Virus record (IMG/VR): IMGVR_UViG_3300044655_001017
Direction: 5' to 3' (one strand)
Length of the DNA: 64,000 nt
Origin: a virus
Lineage: Duplodnaviria; Caudoviricetes
The notes below the pieces were generated by a model that saw only the letters and a list, made by a program, of their open reading frames with translations, was not told where the DNA came from and searched no databases. This document shows positions 1 through 12,004 of the stretch, piece after piece; within the stretch, counting starts at the first letter, position 1; every line of letters begins with the position of its first letter. Made by a program: the position numbers and the translations under genes.

Positions 1-2
1 CC

Positions 3-467
3 GAAGTTGCACAGAACATTCTTGCTGATCTTACTATTGCAGTAGAACAAGAATGTCCAATTGCTAAACAACTTGGTGCAGAAGGGGTCGGCGAGGGAAT
101 TGTTTGGCAATGTGTTACTCCTGGTTACGAACAATCACGCTTTATGTTTAAAGTTAAAGGTGAAAAACACAGTTCATCTAAAGTTAAAACACTAGCAAGT
201 GTTGATATTGAAAAGGTTAATTCTATTAATGAGTTTGCTGATACAGTAGTTACTGAATCTAGACTTACTCAAGGTTTAGAATACTTAAAAGTACACAACA
301 TTAGTATTGAACCTAAAAGCACTCCTGTATTCTTAAAATGGATTGCAGATGATGTTGTTAAAGAAGAAACTGATACGCTAGTTGCAAGTGAACTAGAAAT
401 CAAAGATGTAATAACAAGAGTTAAATATGTTGCACGTACATGGTTTTTAGCCCAAGAGGAAATGTAA
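3..467 (+). CDS. RNA ligase (Rnl2-like nucleotidyltransferase), 5'-truncated by window edge
   Basis: Frame is open from base 3; translation contains ligase motifs IV and V (GEGIVW ... FMFKVKGEKH). Confidence 0.7.
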   Translation, partial: EVAQNILADLTIAVEQECPIAKQLGAEGVGEGIVWQCVTPGYEQSRFMFKVKGEKHSSSKVKTLASVDIEKVNSINEFADTVVTESRLTQGLEYLKVHNISIEPKSTPVFLKWIADDVVKEETDTLVASELEIKDVITRVKYVARTWFLAQEEM

Positions 468-616
468 TGGAATTTTTAATAATGATAGCAATAGCGTACT
501 ACATAGCAGGTGCACTTTTTGCAACGTTGTCATTTGATAACAGTGATGATGCTGGAAGTTTAGTGTCATGGACACACCGCATGGTCTTTTGGCCAGTAGT
601 AATGTGGAGATGTTAA
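467..616 (+). CDS. small membrane hypothetical protein (49 aa)
   Basis: ATG overlaps the ligase stop (TAATG); hydrophobic MEFLIMIAIAYYIAGALF... Confidence 0.5.
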   Translation: MEFLIMIAIAYYIAGALFATLSFDNSDDAGSLVSWTHRMVFWPVVMWRC

Positions 617-619
617 GTA

Positions 620-853
620 ATGGTATCAACAGATGTAATTGTGATAGGAATGCTAAGTATTTCATACTTAATATTAGGGGCCGGGTGTGCTACAATTTTA
701 TCAAATGCACCAGTTGTTAAGCATAGTCCGTTTCGCAACTACTTTATTGTGATAGGATTCTTTTGTTGGCCACTATCACTCTTTTTAATTATAGCATTTG
801 GAATATATTATCCATTTGAAATACTATATAATTTACTAAAAGGAGAAAAATAA
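620..853 (+). CDS. small membrane hypothetical protein
   Basis: ORF track; two hydrophobic segments. Confidence 0.55.
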   Translation: MVSTDVIVIGMLSISYLILGAGCATILSNAPVVKHSPFRNYFIVIGFFCWPLSLFLIIAFGIYYPFEILYNLLKGEK

Positions 854-1119
854 TGCCACTAGTACCAATAGCGTTAGCAGTAGGAACTTTATTTGGAATT
901 GCAATTACTAAAACAGTTGCAGCTTTCAAGGAGATACAAAGACTGGATGAGTTAAAGAAATGATCAATAAAGGGTTAGCAGCAGGTATATTGTTTTATGT
1001 AACTTTATTAATGTATATACATGATAGTGGATACCTGTTGTCACCTATTGAATATTTAGTATTATCATTTAGCTGTTTACTTATTGGTGAAATGTTATAT
1101 CCAAAAGAATAAAAAACAC

Positions 1120-1147
1120 TTGACAAACAATTTTATTAGTGTATAAT
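1120..1147 (+). promoter_or_regulatory. sigma70-like early promoter
   Basis: TTGACA-16 nt-TATAAT upstream of groES; near-identical copy at 7134-7161. Confidence 0.75.
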
Positions 1148-1178
1148 ATGCACATACTAAACAACAAAGGTACACAAC

Positions 1179-1484
1179 ATGGCAGTAACACAAGAAAACG
1201 TAATTCCTTTGCACGATCGTATTGTTGTAAGACAAGATCCTGCAGAAAGCGTAACACAGGGTGGTATTTTAATTGCACCTGTTTCAAAAGAGAAATCTGT
1301 AATTGGAACAGTACTAGCAATAGGAACAGGGAAACATATGGATAATGGTCAGTTCCGAGAAATAAAAGTTGCAATTGGCGATAAAGTGTTATACGGAAAG
1401 CACGCTGGAGAGCCTATTAAATTACATGATGATGAAGTTATCATTATGCGTGAAGATGAAGTATTAGCTATCCTAAGAGATTAG
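1179..1484 (+). CDS. groES: co-chaperonin GroES
   Basis: PLHDRIVV..., GGILI, GTVLAIGTG, GDKVLYGKHAG, IMREDEVLAI motifs. Confidence 0.95.
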   Translation: MAVTQENVIPLHDRIVVRQDPAESVTQGGILIAPVSKEKSVIGTVLAIGTGKHMDNGQFREIKVAIGDKVLYGKHAGEPIKLHDDEVIIMREDEVLAILRD

Positions 1485-1496
1485 CAAAAAGAAAAT

Positions 1497-1615
1497 AGGT
1501 TTCCTACAGCAACAATTTAATATCTCAGTGTGTCGCAGGTTCAAATCCTGCACTGCTCGCAAGAGCGGTTAGCTCAGTTGGTAGAGTAATTGATCAAAAT
1601 TGTGAAACCTGTTAA
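1497..1615 (+). ncRNA. Y-RNA-like scaffold copy A with circularly permuted tRNA module
   Basis: AGGTTTC/GAAACCT stem, CTACAGCAA bulge; inside: T arm GCAGG-TTCAAAT-CCTGC, acceptor ACTGCTC-GCAA-GAGCGGT, D arm TAGCTCAGTTGGTAGAGTA. Confidence 0.75.
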
Positions 1616-1641
1616 AACTCCTTAAAAAATTAAAAAAAGTG

Positions 1642-1670
1642 TTGACACAGCAGTAACAATGTAGTACAAT
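1642..1670 (+). promoter_or_regulatory. sigma70-like promoter driving small-RNA cluster
   Basis: TTGACA-17 nt-TACAAT immediately 5' of scaffold copy B. Confidence 0.7.
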
Positions 1671-1676
1671 AGTTTT

Positions 1677-1734
1677 AGAATGTTAACAGCAACTTAAAAT
1701 CATTTTTGAATATGACTAAAATACATTCTGTTAA
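1677..1734 (+). ncRNA. Y-RNA-like scaffold copy B
   Basis: AGAATGT/ACATTCT stem, TAACAGCAA bulge, GTTAAA tail. Confidence 0.65.
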
Positions 1735-1744
1735 ATAGTTTTTT

Positions 1745-1823
1745 AGGTTTCCTACAGCAATACTTTGCAGAAGTGCGGAAAAGATGTTCCGTACATATTT
1801 GTAACACTATGTGGAACCTGTTA
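1745..1823 (+). ncRNA. Y-RNA-like scaffold copy C (three inner hairpins)
   Basis: AGGTTTC/GGAACCT stem, CTACAGCAA bulge, GTTAAA tail. Confidence 0.65.
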
Positions 1824-1829
1824 AAAAGT

Positions 1830-2072
1830 TTATTAAAAAGAACCCAACTATTGAAAAAACTTTTGCGCAAGCAAGCACAATGTGTTCTCCGGAAGGGGCA
1901 CAGTGGGTAGTTATAGACTGCGAGTTGTAATGAGTGAGAGTTTCAGGCAATTACAGTGCTTTGATTCTAGTTACTATGGTAGTCATGTTGGCGGAACTAG
2001 TAAAGGGCGTCTGTAAAACGTTGACCGCATCAGCTCGATGAAACCAAAACTTTACGGGGTTCTTTTTAATAA
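1830..2072 (+). ncRNA. unclassified structured RNA (~245 nt)
   Basis: Perfect 16-bp closing stem TTATTAAAAAGAACCC/GGGTTCTTTTTAATAA, several internal hairpins, no long ORF. Confidence 0.5.
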
Positions 2073-2077
2073 GTTTT

Positions 2078-2205
2078 AGAATGTTAACCGCATCATAATT
2101 TAATGGAAACTGGTGTCCTTAGGACGTGTAGGTGCAAGTCCTACAATGCAATATTGCATTTGGCGAAAGAGTAGACGCACTGGTAAATAAAATGCATTCT
2201 GATAA
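2078..2205 (+). ncRNA. Y-RNA-like scaffold copy D with permuted class-II (Leu-like) tRNA module
   Basis: AGAATGT/GCATTCT stem, TAACCGCAT bulge; variable-arm hairpin, T arm GTAGG-TGCAAGT-CCTAC, closed acceptor AATGCAA/TTGCATT, D arm TGGCGAAAGAGTAGACGC. Confidence 0.7.
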
Positions 2206-2220
2206 ACACATGAGGTAACT

Positions 2221-2433
2221 ATGAATACAGATTACGCACATGCAGAAGGATTTGCTACATTTACAGGGGATGTAAAAAGAGCATATGAAATATCAAGTTG
2301 GTGCAAGGATCGCAAATTAGTACACGAAGTTGATTATAAATATCATTGTCAACGAAGAGAAAATACTAACACGATAATATTTCAATTTAAAGATCCAAAG
2401 CAAGCTACATTAGCAAGATTGGTTTGGATTTAA
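2221..2433 (+). CDS. hypothetical protein
   Basis: ORF track; GAGG RBS. Confidence 0.6.
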   Translation: MNTDYAHAEGFATFTGDVKRAYEISSWCKDRKLVHEVDYKYHCQRRENTNTIIFQFKDPKQATLARLVWI

Positions 2434-2440
2434 CAGTTTT

Positions 2441-2504
2441 AGGATAGTAACAGCAACAATTTACATCGGACTCTTAATCTGGCAAGTAAATTCTATCCTG
2501 TTTA
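2441..2504 (+). ncRNA. Y-RNA-like scaffold copy E with Lys(CUU)-like anticodon hairpin
   Basis: AGGATAG/CTATCCT stem, TAACAGCAA bulge, inner CGGA-CTCTTAA-TCTG. Confidence 0.65.
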
Positions 2505-2519
2505 ACAACAAATAAACAT

Positions 2520-2810
2520 ATGACCAAATTATCTAAATTAACTAAAAGAAAATCAGATATTAGTTTTATTGATCCAACTACTATGGAAGTTAGATGCACA
2601 TTTAATCAGTGTGTTGATAAGTTTACAATTGGTGAATATGAAACTATACCAAAAGCTAACGGAAACGAGTATACTGTTTTTTATCATAAGTGCGCAGAAT
2701 GCGGTCAACGTGTTAAAGGACGTGGTGATAGTACAAAGGGTTGGTTTAAACATATAGACCGAGTAGTTGACGGCAGCAACAAGTTTTATTCTTCAAATAA
2801 AGAAGAATAA
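2520..2810 (+). CDS. hypothetical protein (Cys motifs, possible Zn-binding)
   Basis: ORF track; CAEC motif. Confidence 0.6.
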   Translation: MTKLSKLTKRKSDISFIDPTTMEVRCTFNQCVDKFTIGEYETIPKANGNEYTVFYHKCAECGQRVKGRGDSTKGWFKHIDRVVDGSNKFYSSNKEE

Positions 2811-2816
2811 GATTTT

Positions 2817-2905
2817 AGAATAGTAACAGCAAATTATTTAATGGTTCGATTCCATTATTGCTATCTTAGCGATAATGCTCAATGGTGAGCAAGCTATTCT
2901 GTTAA
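2817..2905 (+). ncRNA. Y-RNA-like scaffold copy F with minimal permuted tRNA module
   Basis: AGAATAG/CTATTCT stem, TAACAGCAA bulge; T arm AATGG-TTCGATT-CCATT, acceptor ATTGCTA/TAGCGAT closed by TCT, D arm GCTCAATGGTGAGC. Confidence 0.7.
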
Positions 2906-2907
2906 AG

Positions 2908-3022
2908 TTGTTATATTAAAATGTACTACAGCGTCTGATATCAACGTAAGTGTGGAGCACTGCTAGAGTCGCCCTTTAGTATACGGTTCGATTCCGTGAT
3001 GTAGTACATTTTAATATAACAA
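2908..3022 (+). ncRNA. tRNA-like RNA without canonical anticodon loop, in a 23-bp stem
   Basis: Perfect 23-bp inverted repeat (2908-2930/3000-3022) enclosing four hairpins including T arm ACGG-TTCGATT-CCGT. Confidence 0.5.
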
Positions 3023-3034
3023 AAGGAGATTAAT

Positions 3035-3217
3035 ATGGCCGGTAAAGGTAGTAGAGCAAGACCATTAAGCGTTAGCAAATCTCAGTTTGATGATAACTGG
3101 GATAAGATTTTTGGTAAGAAAGAAGAACCCAAAACAGAAATCATTTCAAACTCACACGGCAGTCATGCTAATAACGAAAATTTAGATAAAGGAACACAAG
3201 ATGGCGAACATCAGTAA
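3035..3217 (+). CDS. small hypothetical protein
   Basis: AAGGAG RBS; MAGKGSRARP...FDDNWDKIFGKK. Confidence 0.65.
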   Translation: MAGKGSRARPLSVSKSQFDDNWDKIFGKKEEPKTEIISNSHGSHANNENLDKGTQDGEHQ

Positions 3218-3434
3218 AGCAAATAGAACTGCAGATCCAAAAGTAACACGTAATGGCAGACCTAGACTTAAATTGCTAAACTTAGCTCAAGCTAAGACAG
3301 CACTTGAAAAAGCAGGTCGTGGACGTGATAAAAATAAAATTCGTAACAGAATTGTACTTTTAGAAAATCGTGCTAAAAAATTAGGTGTGTTAGATTTAGT
3401 CACAACTACAACTAATCATGCAGAACTTGTATAA
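3201..3434 (+). CDS. small basic hypothetical protein
   Basis: ORF track; overlaps the previous gene. Confidence 0.6.
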   Translation: MANISKANRTADPKVTRNGRPRLKLLNLAQAKTALEKAGRGRDKNKIRNRIVLLENRAKKLGVLDLVTTTTNHAELV

Positions 3435-3445
3435 ATAAAAAATAT

Positions 3446-3531
3446 GGGCAAGCGTCGCAGTAGGAGAGGCGAGATGGACTGTAAATTCATTACCACGTGT
3501 TGAGTAGATTCGATTTCTACCTTGCCCACCA
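3446..3531 (+). tRNA. tRNA-Tyr(GUA), long variable arm, atypical D arm
   Basis: GGGCAAG/CTTGCCC acceptor, loop CTGTAAA, TTCGA T loop, encoded CCA; TATAAATA late promoter at 3430-3437. Confidence 0.8.
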
Positions 3532-3546
3532 AATAACTAATATAAC

Positions 3547-4161
3547 ATGAACGTATGTAAACACTGCCAACAACCTGCACTTTATCCTCCAAAAACAAAA
3601 TGGGGAGGTTGGTGTTGTGTTGAAAGATTTTATGATTGTACTGGATTTAAGTTAAAACAAAAACTTGGAAAAGAACAATCATCTAAAATTACCGGATTTA
3701 TGCCTAACAATGTTCCTTGGAATAAAGGTAATATAGGTAATGGAACATTTAATGGAAAAACACATACTGAAGTAACTAAAATTTCTATTTCAAATTCAAT
3801 GAAAGGTAATCGAAATGCAAATCATCGAGGTGATCGGCAAAGTTATTACAATAACATTAGAATGGATTCAAAATGGGAAGTCGGTGTAGCTAAGTATTTT
3901 GACAACAATAAAGTTGAATGGAAATATAATGTACAAGGGTATCAATTATCTAATGGCAACTATTATTACCCAGACTTTTTTATATATGAAAATGGAAATT
4001 TTGTAAAATTAGTCGAAGTTAAAGGTTATTTTAGAGAATCAAACAAGGCTAAATTTGAAATGTTCCTTAATGAATATTCACATATTCAAATAGAGCTTTG
4101 GCAAAGAACAATGCTCTATGATTTAGGAATAATAAATAAATCAGGTTATGTTATTGAATAA
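3547..4161 (+). CDS. free-standing endonuclease, PD-(D/E)XK-like with NUMOD-type linker
   Basis: N-terminal Cys cluster, PWNKG motif, YYPDFFI...LVEVKGY catalytic pattern. Confidence 0.65.
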   Translation: MNVCKHCQQPALYPPKTKWGGWCCVERFYDCTGFKLKQKLGKEQSSKITGFMPNNVPWNKGNIGNGTFNGKTHTEVTKISISNSMKGNRNANHRGDRQSYYNNIRMDSKWEVGVAKYFDNNKVEWKYNVQGYQLSNGNYYYPDFFIYENGNFVKLVEVKGYFRESNKAKFEMFLNEYSHIQIELWQRTMLYDLGIINKSGYVIE

Positions 4162-4181
4162 CAGAAACCACCAATTATAAG

Positions 4182-4255
4182 TGTCCTTTAGTGTAATGGT
4201 AGCACAGCAGATTTTGATTCTGCTAGTATAGGTTCGAGCCCTGTAGGGACTGCCA
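4182..4255 (+). tRNA. tRNA-Gln(UUG)
   Basis: Cloverleaf, GCAGA-TTTTGAT-TCTGC anticodon arm, GGTTCGAG, CCA. Confidence 0.9.
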
Positions 4256-4263
4256 AATATTAT

Positions 4264-4338
4264 TCCCTAATAGCTCAGTGGTAGAGCAGGCGACTGTTAA
4301 TTGCCCGGTCGGTGGTTCGAGCCCATCTTAGGGAGCCA
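4264..4338 (+). tRNA. tRNA-Asn(GUU)
   Basis: TCCCTAA/TTAGGGA, loop CTGTTAA, CCA. Confidence 0.92.
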
Positions 4339-4343
4339 AACAA

Positions 4344-4647
4344 GTTTATTGGGATGTAGGCTTAAAAGCAGCCATCATTTAAAGAGTGACCCGCAAACTT
4401 TGCTAAAGTGATACTTAAACTTACGGCAGTGCGAAAGCAACCTGTGAGCGTATGTAACTGCGTTAATATAGAGTCCGGCAATATGCCTTAATGGCTGTTA
4501 CGAGTCTAAAGTGATTGCTATATTAAACGGATGAGGGAGGTACACCCTAATGTTAAGGATGTTTTTCCTAATAGTTAAACTTAACATGTCCGAGAGTTAA
4601 TTAGGATGTCGCAGACAGGTCTTTGGCGTAACAGCACACCACTAAAC
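4344..4647 (+). ncRNA. 23S rRNA L11-binding domain (H43-H44) mimic with ~240-nt insertion
   Basis: GGGATGTAGGCTTAAAAGCAGCCATCATTTAAAGAG (4351-4386) and GCGTAACAGCACAC (4626-4639) match the two halves of 23S nt ~1055-1105. Confidence 0.7.
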
Positions 4648-4748
4648 AACAGAAAACTTTCTCCATCAACGAAAGTGTAGTAGTTGTCATTTTTAAATGA
4701 TAGCTATTACTAAAGCACTAAATATCAAGTGTTTTAGTAATAGTTATT

Positions 4749-4824
4749 GCCAAAGTAGCTCAATAGGTAGAGCACTTCACTTGTAATGAAGATGTTGCGG
4801 GTTCAATTCCTGTCTTTGGCTCCA
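4749..4824 (+). tRNA. tRNA-Thr(UGU)
   Basis: GCCAAAG/CTTTGGC, loop CTTGTAA, CCA. Confidence 0.92.
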
Positions 4825-4832
4825 TATATTTA

Positions 4833-4920
4833 GGAAGGTTGCCAGAATGGTTAATGGAGCAGTTTGCTAAACTGTCGACCTGAAAAGGTCGTATAGGTTC
4901 GAGTCCTATACTTTCCGCCA
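4833..4920 (+). tRNA. tRNA-Ser(GCU)
   Basis: GGAAGGT/ACTTTCC, loop TTGCTAA, long variable arm, CCA. Confidence 0.92.
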
Positions 4921-5006
4921 TACAATAAATGATTTAATTAGTACTTGACTTATACAAAATTTAATGTATAATACACGCATTAGTTAAACAAATTACAGAT
5001 CATGTT

Positions 5007-5585
5007 ATGGAACAATACAAAAATAGTAACGGAACATATACTAGTCCAAAAAATAACAGGACTTATAAAAGTTTAAAAGCATTTACTGCCCACTGGCATT
5101 ATGCACACACAACAAATCCTAATGCATTTGCTGAACGATTATATAATGTAGCATGTCAGTATTGCAATAAAGAATATATGATTAGTAATCATAAACGACA
5201 TGAAGTTGCATGTTATTTAAATCCAATTAATATAAAAAAGTGCTGTGTTTGTGATAAACCAATTAAGAATTACAAGTACAGTAAAGGTACATGTTCTCAT
5301 AGTTGTTCTAATACACATTTTAAAGAGTTAAGAAATAAACCAGAAAAATATACGCAATATGCAACAATTTGTTGGTACTATCATGTTAAAGAATGCATAG
5401 TATGTAAAGAATCAAATATTGTAGCAGTACATCATTATAATGAAAATCATAATGATAATACACTATCAAATTTAGTTCCATTATGTCCTACTCATCACCA
5501 ATACATGCATAGTAGATTTAAAATCCAAATTCAACACATTGTTGATGAGTATGTATTAAATATGAAAATAAAATTTAGAGAATAG
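5007..5585 (+). CDS. HNH endonuclease with Zn-binding N-terminal region
   Basis: CIVC...VHHYNENH...NLVPLCPTHH HNH signature. Confidence 0.8.
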   Translation: MEQYKNSNGTYTSPKNNRTYKSLKAFTAHWHYAHTTNPNAFAERLYNVACQYCNKEYMISNHKRHEVACYLNPINIKKCCVCDKPIKNYKYSKGTCSHSCSNTHFKELRNKPEKYTQYATICWYYHVKECIVCKESNIVAVHHYNENHNDNTLSNLVPLCPTHHQYMHSRFKIQIQHIVDEYVLNMKIKFRE

Positions 5586-5595
5586 TGTGTTGTGT

Positions 5596-5668
5596 CAGGG
5601 TATAGCTGAGGTTGGTTTAGCACCGCGTTTGGGGCGCGGAGACGGGAGTTCGAATCTCTCTATCCTGA
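5596..5668 (+). tRNA. tRNA-Pro(UGG), no encoded CCA
   Basis: CAGGGTA/TATCCTG, loop TTTGGGG, GTTCGAA; followed by ACACAA rather than CCA. Confidence 0.85.
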
Positions 5669-5720
5669 CACAATACATTACTAAATGTAACCCAACATAG
5701 TACGCGAATACTATAGTTTT

Positions 5721-5773
5721 TGAATGCTAACAGCAATTATTACTTTCAATGGTGAATTTAATGCATTCAGTTA
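5721..5773 (+). ncRNA. Y-RNA-like scaffold copy G with Glu(UUC)-like anticodon hairpin
   Basis: TGAATGC/GCATTCA stem, TAACAGCAA bulge, inner loop CTTTCAA. Confidence 0.65.
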
Positions 5774-5795
5774 TAGTATTTGCATACAACAGTTT

Positions 5796-5853
5796 TGGAT
5801 GCTAACTGCAACTTTAAACTTTCTTTTTATGAAACTTAAAATGCATCCAGTTA
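5796..5853 (+). ncRNA. Y-RNA-like scaffold copy H
   Basis: TGGATGC/GCATCCA stem, TAACTGCAA bulge, inner TTTC-TTTTTAT-GAAA hairpin. Confidence 0.65.
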
Positions 5854-5864
5854 TTTAATCATAT

Positions 5865-5938
5865 GCGGGATTGGCATATGGGTTGTGCAATAGCCTTCCA
5901 AGCTATCTAAACGAGTTCGAGTCTCGTATCCCGCTCCA
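5865..5938 (+). tRNA. tRNA-Gly(UCC)
   Basis: GCGGGAT/ATCCCGC, loop CTTCCAA, CCA. Confidence 0.92.
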
Positions 5939-5963
5939 ATTAACAATTACATATAGGTATAAC

Positions 5964-6356
5964 ATGAAACTAACTATTACTGATAACAGTACGTTAAAAG
6001 AAGTAAGAACACGTACTCATAGAAGTAAAACTCAGCATAGTGCGCCAATTAAACATTTTAAAGGTAAAATAGATGGATTGCGTGTAATAGTAACTGAAAC
6101 AATAACAGGTAAGAAATTTTACTTTGTTATTCCTCATGCTGCATATCAACACATGAGATCTACTACATCAATTGAAATACTATTTGAACTAGATGGTTCT
6201 CCTTCTAAACAACGTCCTAGTACTAGTTATAATGCTATTCCGAATTGGTGGATATATCAAGTTCCATCAGAATGCCATATGTATGCTTATAGAATAGATA
6301 ATAGATCAAAAATACCAGTAAATTCAACTTTTAACAATCAATACAAAGAGGACTAA
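5964..6356 (+). CDS. hypothetical protein, possibly a degenerate endonuclease
   Basis: In-frame ATG at 5964 after tRNA-Gly; basic; no clear catalytic motif. Confidence 0.45.
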   Translation: MKLTITDNSTLKEVRTRTHRSKTQHSAPIKHFKGKIDGLRVIVTETITGKKFYFVIPHAAYQHMRSTTSIEILFELDGSPSKQRPSTSYNAIPNWWIYQVPSECHMYAYRIDNRSKIPVNSTFNNQYKED

Positions 6357-6357
6357 T

Positions 6358-6633
6358 ATGACATCAATTCAAGCAAAACACATTTTAGTAGAAACAGAAG
6401 ATCAAGCAAATGACTTGTATAATAAAGTAGTTAACGAAGGTGCAGACTTTGGCGCACTTGCTGCTGTAAATAGTAAATGTCCAAGTGGCCAAAACGGTGG
6501 TGACTTAGGACCGTTTGGTCGCGGTCAGATGGTTAAACCATTTGAAGATGCAGCTTTTGAATTAGGAATTGGTAACTTTAGTAAACCTGTTCAAACACAA
6601 TTTGGTTGGCACGTTATTCAACGTACTGGCTAA
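6358..6633 (+). CDS. ppiC: parvulin-type peptidyl-prolyl isomerase
   Basis: AKHILV, DFGALA...SKCPSGQNGGDLGPFGRGQMVKPFEDAAF, VQTQFGWHVI. Confidence 0.95.
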   Translation: MTSIQAKHILVETEDQANDLYNKVVNEGADFGALAAVNSKCPSGQNGGDLGPFGRGQMVKPFEDAAFELGIGNFSKPVQTQFGWHVIQRTG

Positions 6634-6640
6634 CAATTTT

Positions 6641-6741
6641 GGTATAGATACTGCAACACAACTATAGCTGGTCTGTGGTTTCACAGATAATCCTAGGACT
6701 CTTTACCTAGTATAAAAAAAGTAAGAACTACTATACCGTTA
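6641..6741 (+). ncRNA. Y-RNA-like scaffold copy I
   Basis: GGTATAG/CTATACC stem, ATACTGCAA bulge, two inner hairpins, GTTA tail. Confidence 0.6.
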
Positions 6742-6746
6742 AAAAT

Positions 6747-6886
6747 AGGATAGGTTCAGCAAACAGAATTTGTTAGTTTAATAACTAGCTTTCTGATTAG
6801 CTTGCACTAGAGGTCATTGTGCAAGCAGCAGTCGAGGGGCAATGCTCGACTGTAAAATAAACAACTAAACGCCCAAACTATCCTGC
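6747..6886 (+). ncRNA. Y-RNA-like scaffold copy J
   Basis: AGGATAG/CTATCCT stem, GTTCAGCAA bulge, inner hairpins GCTTGCAC/GTGCAAGC and CAGTCGAG/CTCGACTG. Confidence 0.6.
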
Positions 6887-6918
6887 ATTCTTCCACTAAC
6901 AACTTATAGAGGTATATT

Positions 6919-7095
6919 ATGTCTAATGAAGACGACGATGTATTTTTTACACTTGAACCAGATACACTTGCAGAAATTTTTGCAACTACTCATCAAAAAT
7001 TAGTAGATGGAGAGATTACACTTAATGAAGCCAATCGCATAGGAAGTAACATGCCAGAAGGTTGGGAATTTGAGTTTGAAGACGAAGAAGAATAA
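6919..7095 (+). CDS. small acidic hypothetical protein (58 aa)
   Basis: GAGG RBS; MSNEDDDVFF...EFEFEDEEE; followed by a terminator-like hairpin. Confidence 0.55.
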   Translation: MSNEDDDVFFTLEPDTLAEIFATTHQKLVDGEITLNEANRIGSNMPEGWEFEFEDEEE

Positions 7096-7133
7096 ACCGC
7101 TTAACACGCGGTTTTTTATTCTCTAAAAAATAG

Positions 7134-7161
7134 TTGACAAACAATTTTAATAGTGTATAAT
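7134..7161 (+). promoter_or_regulatory. sigma70-like promoter of the TROVE-like gene
   Basis: TTGACA-16 nt-TATAAT. Confidence 0.75.
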
Positions 7162-7178
7162 ACACAACATAAACAATA

Positions 7179-7217
7179 AGTTTATTAACAGCACATAATT
7201 TAATATAAACTGAGGAG
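7179..7217 (+). promoter_or_regulatory. scaffold copy K in the 5' UTR abutting the RBS (putative autoregulatory operator)
   Basis: AGTTTAT/ATAAACT stem, TAACAGCAC bulge, 3' G is the first base of GAGGAG. Confidence 0.6.
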
Positions 7218-7224
7218 AACACAC

Positions 7225-8637
7225 ATGAGTACATTTATCGAAGCAATTGCAAATCAAGAAGATCGTACCACTAACGGTATGAAAGCACGTAAATCAACCT
7301 CAAGTGCATTAGTCGATCTCTTCTTTAAGGCAGGTGCCTCGAGAGGTAAAAACATCACACCTGAGTTTGTTGCCGCCTATGTAGAAGATAAAGATCTTGC
7401 ATTACGTATTGCAGCTTGGGTACGCGATGTACGTGGTGGTGCAGGCGAACGCCAGTTGTTTAGAGATATTTTATTGTATCTTGAAAACTCAGATCCAGAT
7501 GCTGCTAAGAAACTTGCAGCTAAAGTTCCTGAACTTGGACGCTACGATGACTTACTTGTGTTCAAAACACAAAACTTAAAGGACTATGCATTTGCGTTAA
7601 TTAAAGATGCATTAGAAGCGCAAAATGGACTTGCTGCTAAATGGATTCCACGTAAAGGAGATACTGCGGTACAGTTACGCAATTACTTAGGGTGGTCTCC
7701 TAAACGTTATCGCAAAACACTTGTTTCACTTACTAAAGTAGTTGAAACACAAATGTGTGCTAACCAATGGGACACTATTAACTTTAGTCATGTTCCATCT
7801 GTAGCATCTTCACGCTACAAAAAAGCATTTGCTCGTCACACTGACAAGTATGCTGAATACATTGCTAAATTAGTTAAAGGTGATGATCCAACTGTTAAAG
7901 TTAACGCAGGTGCGATCTATCCATATGAAATCGTTAAGGGTTTAAGTGGTTGGTCTCAACCATCACTACTTGAAAAACAACACATTATTGCACAATGGGA
8001 CGCGTTACCTAACTATGTTGGTGATGCAAGCATTTTACCATTAGTTGATGTATCAGGATCCATGGGTTGTTCTGCAGGTAAAAGCAAAACTGTTACTTGT
8101 ATGGATGTTGCATTATCTTTAGGAATATACTTAGCAGATAAAAATGCTGGTAAGTTTAAAGATACATTCTTAACATTTAGCTCTAAACCAGAGTTAGTTA
8201 CACTAAACGGTAATGTAGTTGAGAAGTATGCGCAGATGTCAAAAAGTGATTGGCAAATGGGCACTAACTTACATGCAGCTTTTTCTAAGATTTTAGAAGT
8301 TGCAGTTAATGGTAATGTACCTGTTGAAGAAATGCCAAAGATACTTTTAATATTATCTGACATGCAATTTGATGCTTGTGTAACACATGATGATTCTGCA
8401 ATAAAAATGATTTGTCGTAAGTATGAAGATGCAGGATATACAGTACCACAAGTTGTGTTTTGGAACTTAAACTCACATGACAATGTGCCAGTTAAGTACA
8501 ATGCAAAAGGTGCAGCATTAGTAAGTGGATTTAGTCCAAGTATTATGACAAGTGTACTTGCAGCTGATATGGATGACTTTACTCCACAAGCAATTATGTT
8601 ACAAACAATTATGAATCCTAGATATGATATAGGATAA
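7225..8637 (+). CDS. DUF2828-family protein (TROVE/Ro60-like helical domain plus vWA MIDAS domain)
   Basis: RDVRGGAGERQLFR, LAAKWIPRKG, DVSGSM MIDAS, ILSDMQFD, VFWNL, VSGFSPS motifs. Confidence 0.8.
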   Translation: MSTFIEAIANQEDRTTNGMKARKSTSSALVDLFFKAGASRGKNITPEFVAAYVEDKDLALRIAAWVRDVRGGAGERQLFRDILLYLENSDPDAAKKLAAKVPELGRYDDLLVFKTQNLKDYAFALIKDALEAQNGLAAKWIPRKGDTAVQLRNYLGWSPKRYRKTLVSLTKVVETQMCANQWDTINFSHVPSVASSRYKKAFARHTDKYAEYIAKLVKGDDPTVKVNAGAIYPYEIVKGLSGWSQPSLLEKQHIIAQWDALPNYVGDASILPLVDVSGSMGCSAGKSKTVTCMDVALSLGIYLADKNAGKFKDTFLTFSSKPELVTLNGNVVEKYAQMSKSDWQMGTNLHAAFSKILEVAVNGNVPVEEMPKILLILSDMQFDACVTHDDSAIKMICRKYEDAGYTVPQVVFWNLNSHDNVPVKYNAKGAALVSGFSPSIMTSVLAADMDDFTPQAIMLQTIMNPRYDIG

Positions 8638-8788
8638 ATTCTACTGCAGATCCAGCACTTACTTTAAGTACTCTGCCTCGGCTGAAGCGAAATGACTGGA
8701 ATGGGCTGCTCTCACGGGGTTTAGTAGTTGTACCTGACACAAAAGAACAACTACACTTTTATCAACTAACTAACTACGAGGAAACACT

Positions 8789-9745
8789 ATGACAACTCAT
8801 CTAACGATAGCAGCAAAGCAAGGCGATTCTATATATGCTTATGTAGTAGAAAAAGAATATCCAAATACTACAATTACCTATAACTGGTATCGAGACGGAG
8901 AATGGTTACCTGGTAATCATTTAGATACCTATCTTTTAACACAAGCAGATGTTGGCCATGTTATACAAGAAAACACTACATTCACAACTGTTATTCCTGG
9001 CGTTATATGGTCGCAACGAACTGAGCCCGGATCATATGAACTTGGATTTAAAGTTCTTAATGTAAACGACTTACCAGAAGGTGAAGTAACTATTTCTGGA
9101 ATTACTGATGTTGCGCAAGCAGGAACATTATTAACTGCAACTAATACACTTAGTGACATTGACGGTTTAGGGTCTATTCGTTATCAATGGTTGCGAAATG
9201 GTAAAGTTATTACAGGAGCAACTTCTGATACTTATGCATTATCTGCAACTGATAATAATAAGAATATTAGCGTTAAAGCAAGTTACACTGATGCATTTGG
9301 TGCTAAAGAATCTGTTACTAGCGATAGTAACTTATTTAAAGTTGCAACTTTACCAAAAACAGGATACACATACGGTAATGACATAATTTTAGGAACACCA
9401 TTAGTTGATTTATTAACTGGTGGAAGAGGTTCTGATATTTTCGTATTTACTACGCCAAGTGCTAATAAATTAGTAATTGATACTATTACTGATTTTAAAT
9501 CATATCAAAACGATAAAATTGATGTAGCTGGCATTGATGCAAATACAACTAACGATGCAGTTACGCTTTATAACGATTCGTTTCAGTTTATTGGAACCGA
9601 TGAGTTTTCAGAGCCTGGACAGTTAAGATTTGATCCTATCACCCAGTTGTTAACTGGAAACACTGATTTAGATAGTACTCCTGAGTTTTCAGTAGTACTA
9701 ACTGGTGTTAAAAGTTTAACTGCTGCAGATTTTGCTGCACTATAA
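8789..9745 (+). CDS. Ig-like repeat protein with RTX/serralysin-type Ca-binding C-terminal domain
   Basis: YQWLRNG Ig-like repeats; LTGGRGSDIFVF, DTITDF, FIG...GQLRF...DLDSTPEFSVVLTGV C-terminus; no signal peptide. Confidence 0.7.
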   Translation: MTTHLTIAAKQGDSIYAYVVEKEYPNTTITYNWYRDGEWLPGNHLDTYLLTQADVGHVIQENTTFTTVIPGVIWSQRTEPGSYELGFKVLNVNDLPEGEVTISGITDVAQAGTLLTATNTLSDIDGLGSIRYQWLRNGKVITGATSDTYALSATDNNKNISVKASYTDAFGAKESVTSDSNLFKVATLPKTGYTYGNDIILGTPLVDLLTGGRGSDIFVFTTPSANKLVIDTITDFKSYQNDKIDVAGIDANTTNDAVTLYNDSFQFIGTDEFSEPGQLRFDPITQLLTGNTDLDSTPEFSVVLTGVKSLTAADFAAL

Positions 9746-9774
9746 ACTAACCATACATTTTAAACCATACACAC

Positions 9775-9803
9775 ATGCGCTGTAACAAGCGCATTTTTTT
9801 TAT
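9775..9803 (+). terminator. intrinsic terminator
   Basis: ATGCGC/GCGCAT hairpin followed by a T-run. Confidence 0.6.
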
Positions 9804-10108
9804 TTGTAGTATGTACTAAGTAACTTTAGCTCTGCGCTAGTTAAGTTGTTTTTGGCGCGATTTGCTTTCATAGACATAAACTGTATATTATCTTTTACAT
9901 ATCCTCTGGTTGAATCTATTCTATCAATAGAATAAGAATCATCTTCAGCTTTTCCATTATGCCACTTTAATGGCATTCCTAAAATAGGACATGAGATTGG
10001 AATTCCAATTTCGTCTAAATCTAAAGTAGTTAAATTAAAATCAAGTCCGCGTTTTTTAGCAGATTGTCTTAATCGATTAAGTATGATGTTTAAATCTCGT
10101 GGTTTCAT
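9800..10108 (-). CDS. HNH-like endonuclease (SIDRIDS..GY family)
   Basis: CPILG...SIDRIDSTRGYVKDNIQF...ANRAK. Confidence 0.7.
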   Translation of the reverse strand: MKPRDLNIILNRLRQSAKKRGLDFNLTTLDLDEIGIPISCPILGMPLKWHNGKAEDDSYSIDRIDSTRGYVKDNIQFMSMKANRAKNNLTSAELKLLSTYYK

Positions 10109-10180
10109 GTAAATATTTATTGACAAATGCATTGTACAATATATAATATGCACATACTTAACAACTACACAGGAGCTTAC

Positions 10181-10609
10181 ATGAAACGTTTACTTTTAGC
10201 AGCAACACTTGGTTTAACTACATTAACTACACATGCAATTTGTCCATCAACGTTAACTGGTAAGTTTTCAGGATCAGGGCAATATACAGAACAAGCAGTT
10301 ATTAGTAACACACCTATAATTAGTTATATTGAATATCATGTAGTGTCAGTTATATTTACAGGATCTACTATGGAAGTAGTAAGAGAATACTTTGCTGCAA
10401 CCGGTAGTGGCCAGCCTGCAGCACAAGAAATGCCAGGTGCGTCAACTGTAATGTATGATAAAAATACGTGTACTGGACAAATTGGCGGATATAAAGATCC
10501 TTTATATTTTGTAGTTAGTAATAGCGGAAACACTATTAAAATAGTACACGGCAAAGCACCAAATTCAAAAAATTTGTATGCAGAAACATGGGAGTTAAAC
10601 AAACAATGA
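10181..10609 (+). CDS. secreted hypothetical protein
   Basis: AGGAG RBS, signal peptide MKRLLLAATLG; sigma70 promoter upstream. Confidence 0.7.
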   Translation: MKRLLLAATLGLTTLTTHAICPSTLTGKFSGSGQYTEQAVISNTPIISYIEYHVVSVIFTGSTMEVVREYFAATGSGQPAAQEMPGASTVMYDKNTCTGQIGGYKDPLYFVVSNSGNTIKIVHGKAPNSKNLYAETWELNKQ

Positions 10610-11067
10610 GTACACTATATATGTTAGTAGGAGTCCCTAGTTCAGGTAAGTCAACATGGGTTGAACAACAATTATGGGCTAAGAATTGTGTGCATCTTAG
10701 CTCGGACAAGTTTATTGACGAGTATGCAGCTTCAGTTGGAAAAACATACAATGAGGTTTTTGATGAGTATATTAAAACTGCAACTCAACTTTTAACCAAA
10801 CGAGCTATTACTACAAACGTAGCTGAAACAAATGCAATTTGGGATCAGACTAATTTAACCGTTAAATCGCGTTCAAAAAAGTTAAAAATATTCTCGTGTT
10901 ATAAAAAGATTGCTGTTGTATTTGCAACACCAGACTCGGCTGAACTTGCAAGACGATTAGCAAGTCGTCCAGGTAAAACCATATCTGATGCAGTTATAGC
11001 ATCTATGACTAGTATATTTCAAATGCCAACTGAAGAAGAAGGCTTTGATGAAATTTGGCATGTATAG
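10606..11067 (+). CDS. P-loop kinase (AAA_33 / polynucleotide-kinase-like)
   Basis: GVPSSGKSTW Walker A, DQTNLT..SR, P.EEEGFDEI. Confidence 0.85.
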   Translation: MSTLYMLVGVPSSGKSTWVEQQLWAKNCVHLSSDKFIDEYAASVGKTYNEVFDEYIKTATQLLTKRAITTNVAETNAIWDQTNLTVKSRSKKLKIFSCYKKIAVVFATPDSAELARRLASRPGKTISDAVIASMTSIFQMPTEEEGFDEIWHV

Positions 11068-11075
11068 GAGAGTAA

Positions 11076-11606: not shown

Positions 11607-11665
11607 CGTAGCACATAAAATGTACTATAATATTACTTTACTTACACAACATGCGAGGTAACTAT

Positions 11666-11992: not shown

Positions 11993-12004
11993 TTTAGGAG
12001 AGAC

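What the first reader, a model, noticed from the sequence alone, without database searches (positions are those of the whole stretch)
1497..8637. Candidate phage Ro60/Y-RNA-like system: TROVE-vWA (DUF2828) protein plus ten dispersed copies of a new small-RNA scaffold
Seen: ten intergenic elements (1497, 1677, 1745, 2078, 2441, 2817, 5721, 5796, 6641, 6747) share one architecture: an often AGTTTT-like leader, a 7-bp stem that differs in sequence but stays paired (AGGTTTC/GAAACCT, AGAATGT/ACATTCT, AGGATAG/CTATCCT, TGGATGC/GCATCCA, GGTATAG/CTATACC), a conserved 5'-side bulge of consensus (T/C)AAC-N-GCAA, a variable cargo domain, then a GTTA-like tail. They surround the tRNAs and end at a gene with a helical N-terminal region and a vWA MIDAS (DVSGS). 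Known: Ro60/Rsr is TROVE plus vWA and binds Y RNAs through a stem with a conserved internal loop; bacterial YrlA RNAs carry tRNA-like domains and rsr often lies near RNA-ligase genes. Inference: this is a divergent Ro-like RNP in which one protein scaffolds many cargo RNAs. The bulge sequence differs from the canonical Y RNA motif, so it may be an undescribed family.
Basis: partly seen in the sequence, partly recalled or inferred. Interest (0 to 1): 0.92.

Follow-up and report, generated by a model that had tools for sequence, protein, structure and literature searches.

The report
Phage Ro60-like protein with handle RNAs
A freshwater T4-like phage encodes a ring-shaped protein that folds like the RNA-surveillance protein Ro60, plus ten small RNAs (and a copy on the gene's own ribosome-binding site) that share one conserved 'handle'. 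The same protein-RNA pairing recurs in phages of very different bacteria, and I found no published description of the RNA half.

Summary
All ten elements are at the stated coordinates. Each has a 7-bp terminal stem, a single-stranded N-T-W-C-A-G-C-A-A next to the 5' strand, a variable cargo and a G-T-T tail. An eleventh copy sits in the 5' UTR of the gene and abuts its Shine-Dalgarno.

- **Protein.** The 470-aa protein (Pfam DUF2828 + DUF7788) folds as a Ro60-like ring plus vWA domain (Z 21.5 to Xenopus Ro60).
- **RNA.** In about 90 related loci the handle is 263:5 strand-biased. 86% of motif-only anchors have a perfect complementary 3' strand, against about 1% in the control. 82 of 83 loci carry it within 3 kb upstream of the gene.
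- **Range.** It flanks homologues at 30-50% identity in cultured phages of seven of eight further host genera.
- **Expression.** Metatranscriptome contigs cover the array but not the flank.

The best reading is a Ro60/Y-RNA-like particle with its own handle. Binding itself is untested.

Already known: phage Ro60-Y RNA particles, and homologue Bas63 gp130 as a Ro60-like counter-defence protein. The RNA family matches no Rfam family at threshold; its nearest match, below threshold, is the Dictyostelium Class I RNAs. This scan has noted the same pairing before on DNA of many other genomes.

The parts
3..467 (+). C-terminal part of an RNA ligase gene (context: RNA-repair theme)
   Evidence: PHROG 548 'RNA ligase', E 1.2e-24. 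An RNA ligase also lies directly upstream of the DUF2828 gene in phage GAP32.
1497..1610 (+). E1: handle AGGTTTC/GAAACCT + CTACAGCAA. The cargo is a YrlA-like permuted tRNA-like body (T arm, hairpin, D arm).
   Evidence: Rfam YrlA RF02553 scores 35.8 bits on 1512-1606, E 9.4e-6, below the gathering score of 69.
1642..1670 (+). Sigma-70-like promoter (11 of 12). The expected start is about 1677, the first base of E2.
   Evidence: The start site is inferred from spacing only.
1677..1729 (+). E2: 53-nt handle RNA, AGAATGT/ACATTCT + TAACAGCAA
   Evidence: (72 bits). RF01414 scores 18.1 bits.
1745..1819 (+). E3: handle AGGTTTC/GGAACCT (one G-U pair) + CTACAGCAA, hairpin cargo
   Evidence: RF01414 scores 17.5 bits.
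2078..2200 (+). E4: handle AGAATGT/GCATTCT (one G-U pair) + TAACCGCAT. The cargo has a T-arm-like hairpin.
   Evidence: E 2e-4, not in the training set.
2441..2499 (+). E5: 59-nt handle RNA, AGGATAG/CTATCCT + TAACAGCAA. The cargo hairpin has the 7-nt loop CUCUUAA.
2817..2900 (+). E6: handle AGAATAG/CTATTCT + TAACAGCAA. The cargo is T arm, hairpin, D arm.
   Evidence: E 5e-6, not in the training set.
5721..5769 (+). E7: 49-nt handle RNA, TGAATGC/GCATTCA + TAACAGCAA
   Evidence: (80 bits).
5796..5849 (+). E8: 54-nt handle RNA, TGGATGC/GCATCCA + TAACTGCAA. The cargo loop is UUUUUAU.
6641..6737 (+). E9: handle GGTATAG/CTATACC + ATACTGCAA, multi-hairpin cargo
   Evidence: E 0.026, not in the training set.
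6747..6884 (+). E10: handle AGGATAG/CTATCCT + GTTCAGCAA, 115-nt three-hairpin cargo, atypical tail GCATTC
   Evidence: Not found by model R1.
7094..7114 (+). Intrinsic-terminator-like hairpin that ends the upstream unit
7134..7161 (+). Consensus sigma-70 promoter (12 of 12) of the DUF2828 gene
7179..7211 (+). Minimal handle in the 5' UTR: AGTTTAT + TAACAGCAC + 10 nt + ATAAACT, directly followed by the GAGGAG Shine-Dalgarno (7212-7217)
   Evidence: 47 bits. A handle hairpin ends 42 nt or less before the ATG in 68 of 76 distinct upstream regions of homologues.
7225..8637 (+). 470-aa DUF2828 + DUF7788 protein: Ro60-like helical-repeat ring plus vWA domain with MIDAS
   Evidence: Pfam. PHROG 850 'RNA-binding protein', 3e-141. 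AF2 model pLDDT 92.4. Foldseek top 13 all Ro60/TROVE. Z 21.5, 408 aa aligned, rmsd 3.8 A to 1yvr. 37% identical to Bas63 gp130.
3446..5938 (+). Seven canonical tRNA genes (Tyr, Gln, Asn, Thr, Ser, Pro, Gly) interleaved with the handle RNAs
   Evidence: ARAGORN; Rfam tRNA.

Best explanation
The gene at 7225-8637 encodes a Ro60-like ring protein of the DUF2828/DUF7788 family. The ten upstream elements are small RNAs that serve as its Y-RNA-like partners.

Each RNA has two parts:
- A constant 'handle' that is the protein-binding site. It consists of a 7-bp stem joining the 5' and 3' ends (consensus AGGATNN/NNATCCT in this clade), the single-stranded NTWCAGCAA, and a 3' GUU.
- A variable cargo that the particle displays. 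Three cargoes are permuted tRNA-like bodies of the YrlA type. Several others are anticodon-arm-like hairpins.

The RNAs are made from tRNA-operon transcripts and from at least one promoter of their own.

By analogy with Ro60-Y RNA particles, the cargoes probably tether the ring to, or act as decoys for, host enzymes that act on tRNA. Candidates are nucleases, repair enzymes and modification enzymes. That would fit the counter-defence phenotype published for the homologue Bas63 gp130.

The minimal handle that abuts the gene's Shine-Dalgarno would let free protein repress its own translation. Output would then match the supply of RNA partners.

Shown here: the fold, the RNA structure, the two-way co-occurrence, and presence in RNA libraries. 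Inferred: binding, the decoy or tether role, and autoregulation.
For: Protein:
- Full-length Ro60 fold. Foldseek E 5e-9 to 6e-6, with the top 13 hits all Ro60/TROVE. VIA Z 21.5, 408 of 470 residues aligned, and the next non-Ro hits are vWA-only at Z about 10.
- MIDAS residues are invariant.

RNA:
- 263 versus 5 strand bias.
- 86% versus about 1% pairing in a test that did not select for pairing, with stem positions 3, 4, 6 and 7 varying.
- The terminal stem forms in free MFE folds of all eleven copies.

Linkage of RNA and gene:
- 82 of 83 loci carry a handle within 3 kb upstream of the gene, and 126 hits lie in the last 500 nt.
- 68 of 76 distinct 5' UTRs carry a handle next to the Shine-Dalgarno.
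- Of 77 loci fetched by the RNA pattern alone, 33 hold the gene in the stored piece, with 39 of 39 motifs on its strand. Two of five others, including the only complete genome, hold it elsewhere in the record.
- Handles flank homologues at 30-50% identity in phages of Synechococcus, E. coli, Vibrio, Campylobacter, Listeria, Mycobacterium, Staphylococcus and Fusobacterium.

Body and handle:
- E1 combines this handle with a YrlA-type body (35.8 bits). The body is the same as in YrlA, and the handle differs along with the protein family.

Expression:
- Long metatranscriptome contigs with few differences cover 1178-2208, 3034-4650, 5692-6887 and 7440-8615 in 4 runs from 2 studies. Positions 8800-12000 are almost empty.

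Precedents:
- Phage Ro60 binds phage Y-like RNAs and host PNPase (PMC12135203).
- Bas63 gp130, 37% identical, counters the ppl defence (PMC11482910). Four unannotated handle RNAs lie among its tRNAs.
Against: - No binding data exist.
- Bas63 gp130 expressed alone from a plasmid rescued T7, which has no handle RNAs. The protein can therefore act without phage-encoded partners.
- The protein fails the sequence definition of TROVE, and the handle is unlike the Ro60-binding helix of known Y RNAs.
- GAP32 showed no convincing handle within 5 kb of its gene.
- The RNA evidence comes from assembled contigs. These cannot show ends, strand or discrete small RNAs.
- In this clade the first five stem pairs are nearly invariant, so covariation rests mainly on positions 3, 4, 6 and 7.
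Confidence: 0.72

Rival explanations
1. The handle is a processing or stability module of tRNA-operon transcripts. On this reading host RNases (RNase P, E or Z) or the phage RNA ligase recognise a 7-bp acceptor-stem-like helix with A/U-rich flanks. The DUF2828 gene is then only a syntenic neighbour of the tRNA region and not a binding partner.
For: - The stem has the length of a tRNA acceptor stem.
- Leaders and tails are A/U-rich.
- The elements sit among tRNAs.
- The neighbouring 239-nt RNA appears end-joined in RNA libraries.
- gp130 works without handle RNAs in T7.
Against: - A handle sits in the gene's own 5' UTR in 68 of 76 upstream regions, away from any tRNA.
- Handles follow the gene in phages where no tRNA gene is annotated within 2 kb of it: LeBron, Staphylococcus S-CoN_Ph8 and Fnu1.
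- The single-stranded CAGCAA is conserved from Actinobacteria phages to cyanophages although these hosts have different RNases.
Confidence: 0.12
2. The handles are only regulatory sites and sponges for the protein. The UTR copy represses translation and the upstream copies titrate the protein. The cargoes have no role of their own, and the protein's real substrates are host RNAs.
For: - The UTR copy abuts the Shine-Dalgarno.
- gp130 alone suffices against ppl.
- Canonical Ro60 also binds misfolded host RNAs (background cited in PMC12135203).
Against: - The cargoes are elaborate. They include YrlA-type tRNA-like bodies that recur across lineages.
- The modules are kept in strains that have lost the ORFs between them.
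Confidence: 0.1
3. The motif acts at the DNA level, as a promoter or operator (TAGGAT and TAGAAT resemble a -10 box) or as a recombination or homing site at module borders.
For: - The T-AGGAT / T-AGAAT part of the leader and stem fits TAnnnT.
- ORF insertions and deletions fall at module borders.
Against: - The 3' complement is present in 86% of anchors against about 1% in the control.
- The stem sequence is not conserved in distant phages, for example TGAGCGC in LeBron and AGACCAA in Felix O1-like phages, yet pairing and CAGCAA are.
- Strand bias is 263:5.
- The region is present in RNA libraries.
Confidence: 0.03

Closest known systems
Ro60 (Rsr/TROVE) with Y RNAs: bacterial Rsr-YrlA/YrlB, mycobacteriophage YrlA (Chen et al. 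2014, PMC4201824; Rfam RF02553), and Thermus phage phiLo Ro60 with Yrl1/Yrl2 and PNPase (PMC12135203)
   Same: - Ring of helical repeats plus a vWA/MIDAS domain (Z 21.5).
- Small RNAs encoded beside the gene, with 5' and 3' ends paired in a stem.
- Some RNAs carry a permuted tRNA-like body in the YrlA order.
- RNA ligase genes lie nearby.
- Encoded by phages.
   Different: - No TROVE Pfam match. The family is DUF2828/DUF7788 with only about 13% identity to Ro60.
- The handle (7-bp stem plus single-stranded NTWCAGCAA plus GUU) is unlike the known Ro60-binding helix or the GNCGAA / CGAA motifs named in those papers.
- There are up to ten RNAs per locus, against one to four.
- A copy sits on the gene's own ribosome-binding site.
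Bas63 (Escherichia phage JohannRWettstein) gp130, PhageMaP preprint (PMC11482910)
   Same: - Same protein family: 37% identity over the full length, E 2e-95.
- The gene lies next to the tRNA array.
- The authors noted the Ro60-like structure and guessed that some annotated tRNA genes may be Y RNAs.
   Different: - The preprint defines no RNA partners. The four handle RNAs I find among the Bas63 tRNAs are unannotated.
- The counter-defence function (against ppl) was shown for Bas63, not for this phage.
- There the RNAs lie downstream of the gene; here they lie upstream.
Dictyostelid Class I RNAs (Rfam RF01414; Kjellin et al. 2021, PMC7919456)
   Same: - Short terminal stem joining the two ends, and the motif CUUACAGCAA immediately 3' of the 5' strand.
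- A variable remainder.
- Conserved start (A)AG and end CUGU. The phage version is AG-stem-NTWCAGCAA ... stem-CU-GUU.
- Four copies here are 49-59 nt long.
- Run alone over whole phage records, RF01414 gives its best hits exactly on handle RNAs.
   Different: - Scores are far below Rfam's threshold: 17.5-23.1 bits against 41.5.
- The linker is one nucleotide shorter.
- Many phage copies carry long structured cargo.
- The dictyostelid RNAs have a eukaryotic promoter (DUSE), and their only shown direct binder is the RRM protein Rnp1A.
- I could not check whether dictyostelids encode a DUF2828 protein.

Membership tests
DUF2828/DUF7788 proteins (PF11443 + PF25043; PHROG 850) | Both Pfam domains above their gathering scores, in this order | tested here: met
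   PF11443 scores 86.2 bits (cut-off 29) and PF25043 scores 164 bits (cut-off 27.1). PHROG 850 E 3e-141.
Ro60 / TROVE (Rsr) | TROVE domain recognisable by sequence (PF05731) | tested here: not met
   No TROVE hit at E 0.01 or better. phmmer against PDB found nothing. A profile against PDB gave Ro60/TROVE chains only at E 0.05-0.4, mostly over the MIDAS stretch.
Ro60 / TROVE (Rsr) | Helical-repeat ring followed by a vWA domain | tested here: met
   AF2 model pLDDT 92.4. The ten best VIA matches are all Ro60, Z 12.6-21.5, with 385-413 residues aligned. Foldseek E down to 5e-9.
Ro60 / TROVE (Rsr) | MIDAS motif DxSxS ... T ... D in the vWA domain | tested here: met
   D275, S277, S279, T347 and D379 are invariant in 66 homologues. 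DVSGS is read in the sequence.
Ro60 / TROVE (Rsr) | Binds the terminal stem of Y RNAs on the ring surface and RNA ends in the cavity | not testable with these tools
   No protein-RNA prediction or assay is available here. Only co-occurrence was shown.
YrlA (Rfam RF02553) | Score at or above the gathering threshold of 69 bits | tested here: not met
   E1 cargo 1512-1606 scores 35.8 bits, E 9.4e-6. No other element matched.
YrlA (Rfam RF02553) | T arm, hairpin and D arm in permuted order, enclosed by a stem formed from the RNA ends | tested here: met
   Met for E1 and E6, and partly for E4. Not met for the other seven.
Dictyostelid Class I RNA (Rfam RF01414) | Score at or above the gathering threshold of 41.5 bits | tested here: not met
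   17.5-18.1 bits for E1-E3. The best in other phages is 23.1 bits.
Dictyostelid Class I RNA (Rfam RF01414) | Short stem joining the 5' and 3' ends, with the conserved motif (CCUUACAGCAA) directly 3' of the 5' strand | tested here: inconclusive
   Same position and the same ACAGCAA core. The phage consensus NTWCAGCAA is one nucleotide shorter. 34 of 37 curated D. discoideum RNAs carry ACAGCAA (counted by eye).
Dictyostelid Class I RNA (Rfam RF01414) | Conserved termini: start (A)AG, end CUGU | tested here: met
   In phage elements stem position 1 is A in 89% and position 2 is always G (required by the descriptor). The 3' strand ends C-T, followed by G-T-T. Staphylococcus phage copies start AAG.
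Dictyostelid Class I RNA (Rfam RF01414) | DUSE promoter about 60 nt upstream; occurs in Dictyostelia | tested here: not met
   This is a bacteriophage context with sigma-70-type promoters.

The most novel reading that the evidence does not exclude
The phage handle RNAs and the Class I RNAs of Dictyostelia would be one RNA family, or two convergent ligands for one protein fold. DUF2828/DUF7788-type Ro-like proteins also occur in eukaryotes. Such a protein would then be the missing partner of the Class I RNAs, an abundant RNA class of unknown mechanism that its describers report as unique to social amoebae.
Probability: 0.12. Interest if true: 0.9.

Novelty: new variant of a known kind. Interest (0 to 1): 0.74.

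Why it matters
Ro60-Y RNA particles are studied in animals and in a few bacteria and phages. This would be a second, much larger viral branch:

- The protein family has more than 6,000 clusters at 50% identity.
- It occurs in 706 cultured phage records.
- One member has a published counter-defence phenotype.
- Its RNA half has, as far as I could find, no description in the papers searched and no matching Rfam family.

Defining the handle has three practical uses:
- Hidden RNA genes can be annotated in well-used phages: Felix O1-like, Listeria P100-like, Staphylococcus, Campylobacter and mycobacteriophage cluster L.
- It gives a precise, mutable binding site for biochemistry.
- It makes the idea of modular tRNA-part decoys mounted on one scaffold testable.

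The resemblance to the Dictyostelium Class I RNAs offers a concrete hypothesis for an RNA class whose mechanism is unknown.

Tried and rejected
- **Covariance model R1.** Built from five short copies, it proved too specific to this clade's loop content: only 27 hits at E 0.001 or better in 600 kb. I replaced it with a sequence-plus-pairing descriptor with strand and swapped-stem controls. Alignment A3 was not used for covariation.
- **Loose descriptor.** Without the tail and G2 constraints it has a high background, about 30 hits per strand per 64 kb, so it was dropped.
- **Sequence identity searches.** Megablast of the region against cultured phages found nothing. phmmer against PDB found nothing.
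- **Own genome.** The window's assembly is not held.
- **Avesson et al. 2011.** This paper names the four Class I RNA-binding proteins, but it is not in the library.
- **Does Dictyostelium encode a DUF2828 protein?** I could not settle this. Organisms are hidden in the AFDB cluster search. Swiss-Prot structures gave no Dictyostelium entry. The Atlas clusters are mostly viral. The literature on DUF2828, PF11443 and DUF7788 is empty of function.
- **Leader-tail pairing.** I considered pairing of the U-run leader with the A-run tail as an extended bulged helix. It fits only about 6 of 10 copies and is not supported by the family logo.
- **TAAC/GTTA pseudoknot.** Rejected on geometry, because the two segments leave opposite ends of the 7-bp helix.
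- **GAP32.** No convincing handle within 5 kb of its gene, even with a relaxed scan.

Full report
**1. What is in the sequence**

The stretch 1-9000 is phage DNA with all genes on the + strand. In order it holds:
- the end of an RNA ligase gene (3-467; PHROG 548);
- small ORFs;
- a GroES gene (1179-1484);
- seven tRNA genes;
- two homing-endonuclease-like ORFs;
- a parvulin gene (6358-6633);
- a 470-codon gene at 7225-8637.

Each has:
- a 7-bp stem that closes the element;
- nine mostly unpaired bases of the form (N)(T/A)(A/T)C-N-GCA(A/T) directly after the 5' strand;
- a cargo of 26 to 115 nt;
- the 3' strand, followed by G-T-T in nine of ten cases.

The stem forms in unconstrained MFE folds of every copy. 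I found an eleventh, minimal copy at 7179-7211. It lies between the gene's consensus promoter (7134-7161, 12 of 12) and its start codon. Its 3' strand is followed at once by the GAGGAG Shine-Dalgarno.

**2. Is it more than chance?**

- A covariance model built from five short copies finds E6, E4 and E9, which it had never seen, at E 5e-6, 2e-4 and 0.026. E1 and E3 are marginal, and E10 is missed.
- In 1.03 Mb made up of the window and 89 loci that encode homologues, a tight descriptor gives 263 hits on the gene strand and 5 on the other.
- In a test that does not select for pairing, I took 235 distinct 5' anchors defined by sequence alone. Of these, 202 (86%) have an exact 7-nt complement plus G within 270 nt downstream.
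- When stems are swapped among anchors the mean is 2.8 and the maximum 9. None of 34 minus-strand anchors pairs.
- Stem positions 3, 4, 6 and 7 vary. Positions 1, 2 and 5 are nearly fixed in this clade (AGGAT-N-N).

The elements are therefore structured, strand-specific RNA features.

**3. The protein**

- Pfam gives DUF2828 plus DUF7788. PHROGs gives family 850, 'RNA-binding protein'.
- The family is very large: 6,162 clusters at 50% identity with E 0.001 or better.
- An AlphaFold2 model built on 66 diverse homologues has pLDDT 92.4 and pTM 0.90.
- Foldseek against the PDB returns 13 significant hits, all Ro60/TROVE proteins over the full length, E 5e-9 to 6e-6.
- VIA-align gives Z 21.5 to Xenopus Ro60 (1yvr): 408 residues aligned, rmsd 3.8 A, 13% identity. 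All ten best entries are Ro60. The next matches cover only the vWA domain at Z about 10.
- The MIDAS residues are invariant.
- By sequence the protein does not qualify as TROVE.

It is a distant structural relative of Ro60, not a member of the Pfam TROVE family.

**4. Linkage between RNA and protein**

From gene to RNA:
- 82 of 83 loci with upstream sequence carry at least one handle within 3 kb upstream of the gene. 126 hits lie in the last 500 nt.
- In 68 of 76 distinct upstream regions a handle hairpin ends 42 nt or less before the ATG, usually right against the Shine-Dalgarno.

From RNA to gene:
- I fetched 77 viral loci with the pattern TTTTAGGATNNNTWCAGCAA alone. 33 hold a DUF2828 gene in the stored piece, and all 39 motifs are on its strand.
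- Of five others examined record-wide, two have the gene elsewhere, including the only complete genome. The three without it are fragments estimated 6-17% complete.

Across large distances (30-50% protein identity), handles of the form stem + NNNCAGCAA ... stem + G lie directly beside the gene in these cultured phages:
- Synechococcus phage BUCT-ZZ01 (three upstream);
- a Felix O1-like coliphage (four in the tRNA array downstream);
- Vibrio phage K566 (one);
- Campylobacter phage F352 (one in the 5' UTR);
- Listeria phage LP-Mix_6.2 (three upstream);
- mycobacteriophage LeBron (three downstream);
- with a relaxed scan, Staphylococcus phage S-CoN_Ph8 (three downstream) and Fusobacterium phage Fnu1 (one in the 5' UTR).

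Only GAP32 showed none. In these distant phages the stem sequences differ completely, but pairing and CAGCAA persist.

**5. The cargoes**

- E1, E6 and in part E4 hold a T arm, a hairpin and a D arm in the permuted order typical of YrlA. E1 matches Rfam YrlA at 35.8 bits (E 9.4e-6), below the threshold of 69.
- Related loci carry similar bodies.
- The body is thus that of a known Ro60 partner, while the handle differs together with the protein family. I take this as the strongest internal argument that the handle is the protein-binding module.
- The short copies carry single hairpins. Those of E5 (CUCUUAA) and E8 (UUUUUAU) have 7-nt loops shaped like tRNA-Lys anticodon loops. In such A/T-rich sequence this could be chance.

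**6. Expression**

- Fourteen lake-water metagenomes hold the stretch as DNA. Four freshwater metatranscriptome runs from two studies hold parts of it.
- Their contigs, with few differences, cover 1178-2208, 3034-3439 + 4180-4650, 5692-5959 + 6354-6887 and 7440-8615. Positions 8800-12000 are nearly empty. DNA carry-over is therefore an unlikely explanation.
- Contigs cannot show ends or strand, so discrete small RNAs remain to be shown.
- The same contigs come from strains that lack the small ORFs 2221-2433, 2520-2810, 3547-4161 and 5964-6356. Three of the four joints (2208>2435, 2502>2812, 3439>4180) fall at the edges of RNA genes (E4/E5, E5/E6, tRNA-Tyr/tRNA-Gln). The fourth (5959>6354) lies about 20 nt after tRNA-Gly. 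The RNA modules are the conserved units.
- A promoter-like site at 1642-1670 (11 of 12) would start transcription at about 1677, the first base of E2 (inference from spacing).

**7. How it most likely works**

- Shown: a Ro60-fold protein; a structured RNA family with a constant handle and variable, often tRNA-like, cargo; tight two-way co-occurrence; presence in RNA.
- Inferred: the ring binds the handle, as Ro60 binds the terminal stem of Y RNAs.
- Inferred: the cargoes recruit or decoy host factors that recognise tRNA parts.
- Inferred: the UTR handle lets free protein block its own ribosome-binding site.

The inference leans on three precedents:
- Bacterial Rsr-YrlA (PMC4201824).
- Thermus phage phiLo Ro60, which binds two phage Y-like RNAs and host PNPase (PMC12135203).
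- Bas63 gp130. I confirmed that bas63_0130 is a homologue: 37% identity, E 2e-95. The PhageMaP preprint reports it as Ro60-like and as a counter to the ppl defence (PMC11482910).

One point against an obligatory RNA partner: gp130 alone rescued T7, which lacks handle RNAs. Four handle RNAs lie unannotated among the Bas63 tRNAs, which makes Bas63 the obvious test system.

**8. Comparison with the known**

No Rfam family reaches its threshold on the elements. Besides YrlA on E1, the only family that aligns is Dicty_Class_I_RNA (RF01414), at 17.5-18.1 bits on E1-E3.

The likeness is detailed:
- Kjellin et al. (PMC7919456) describe a 6-bp stem joining the ends, an 11-nt motif CCUUACAGCAA next to the 5' strand, a variable rest, a start AAG and an end CUGU.
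- The curated D. discoideum RNAs read GTTGAC-CTTACAGCAA...GTCAAC-TG, and 34 of 37 carry ACAGCAA.
- The phage consensus reads AGGATNN-NTWCAGCAA...NNATCCT-GTT, one nucleotide shorter in the linker.
- Run alone over whole phage records, RF01414 puts its best hits exactly on handle RNAs of a Listeria phage (23.1 and 19.1 bits) and of a Felix O1-like phage (20.1 and 14.9 bits). All are below the threshold of 41.5. Hits at E 1 or better also occur in 7 of 14 control genomes.

[quoted passage not shown] DUF2828/DUF7788 proteins do occur in eukaryotes; for example a 'Plant/T31B5-30 protein' is among the AFDB cluster hits. I could not determine whether dictyostelids have one. I therefore rate common ancestry or a shared protein partner as possible but unlikely (about 0.12).

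**9. Novelty and verdict**

Already known:
- Phage-encoded Ro60 with Y-like RNAs.
- The Ro60-likeness and counter-defence role of one DUF2828 protein, in a preprint that also guessed at Y RNAs.

Apparently new:
- The RNA family itself: its handle, its range across phages of at least eight bacterial genera, and the modular cargoes.
- The near-universal copy on the gene's own leader.

This makes it a new variant of a known kind.

Earlier notes of this scan describe the same pairing on DNA of many other genomes (346 notes in at least 282 genomes matched the search words). I re-tested their main claims here. This window stands out for the number of copies: ten plus the UTR copy.

Noticed in passing
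window 1830-2068: This is an unclassified structured RNA of about 239 nt between E3 and E4, closed by the 13-bp stem TTAAAAAGAACCC/GGGTTCTTTTTAA. It appears end-joined in RNA libraries. Contigs from two runs of two studies wrap round (2068>1830 at depth 180; 2069>1829 at depth 25.5) with an overlap of about 30 nt. The back-joined junction is absent from two DNA collections in which the linear junction occurs 2 + 3 times. The element is single-copy in five related DNA loci. It is a candidate circular RNA, and an RNA ligase gene lies 1.4 kb upstream. A tandem duplication in some strain is not excluded.
   Followed up: partly
window 4350-4385 (within the 4340-4745 spacer between tRNA-Asn and tRNA-Thr): 36 nt are 94% identical to E. 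coli 23S rRNA, with 7 places per genome. rRNA contigs of other organisms align there in the metatranscriptomes. The piece heads a roughly 400-nt non-coding stretch that is present in RNA contigs.
   Followed up: partly
window 2208>2435, 2502>2812, 3439>4180, 5959>6354: Metatranscriptome contigs of related strains lack the small ORFs 2221-2433, 2520-2810, 3547-4161 (endonuclease-like) and 5964-6356. Three of the four joints fall at the borders of RNA genes (E4/E5, E5/E6, tRNA-Tyr/tRNA-Gln); the fourth, 5959>6354, lies about 20 nt after tRNA-Gly. The ORFs look like insertions between conserved RNA modules.
   Followed up: no
window 2441-2499 (E5) and 5796-5849 (E8): The cargo hairpins have 7-nt loops, CUCUUAA and UUUUUAU, with the shape of tRNA-Lys (CUU / UUU) anticodon loops. 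They could be anticodon-nuclease decoys, or chance in A/T-rich sequence.
   Followed up: no
window 2920-3015: A hairpin of about 20 bp (TTATATTAAAATGTACTACA / TGTAGTACATTTTAATATAA) encloses a segment with a T-arm-like ACGGTTCGATTCCGT. ARAGORN does not call it a tRNA, and it has no handle motif.
   Followed up: no
window 15296-15505: A group I intron, Rfam RF00028, 69.2 bits, above threshold.
   Followed up: no
L098 3504-4769 and 10396-11443; L094 7855-9066: RNA-repair genes accompany the DUF2828 gene in other phages. In GAP32 an RNA ligase lies directly upstream and a CCA-adding/phosphodiesterase gene lies 4 kb downstream. In Listeria phage LP-Mix_6.2 an RtcB-type ligase lies 1.3 kb downstream. 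This recalls the bacterial rsr-rtcB neighbourhood.
   Followed up: no
L095 6532-6594, 6609-6668, 6681-6739: The three handle RNAs of Staphylococcus phage S-CoN_Ph8 start AAG and carry (C)TTACAGCAA (third copy GTACAGCAA). They are closer to the Dictyostelium Class I consensus than this window's copies. They overlap short annotated 'hypothetical protein' ORFs.
   Followed up: no
L216 3254-3320, 3421-3478, 3876-3943, 3963-4088: Bas63 (Escherichia phage JohannRWettstein) has four unannotated handle RNAs between its annotated tRNA genes, downstream of gp130. Two (3876-3943 and 3963-4088) overlap annotated minus-strand ORFs, bas63_0137 (3930-4082) in the case of 3963-4088.
   Followed up: partly
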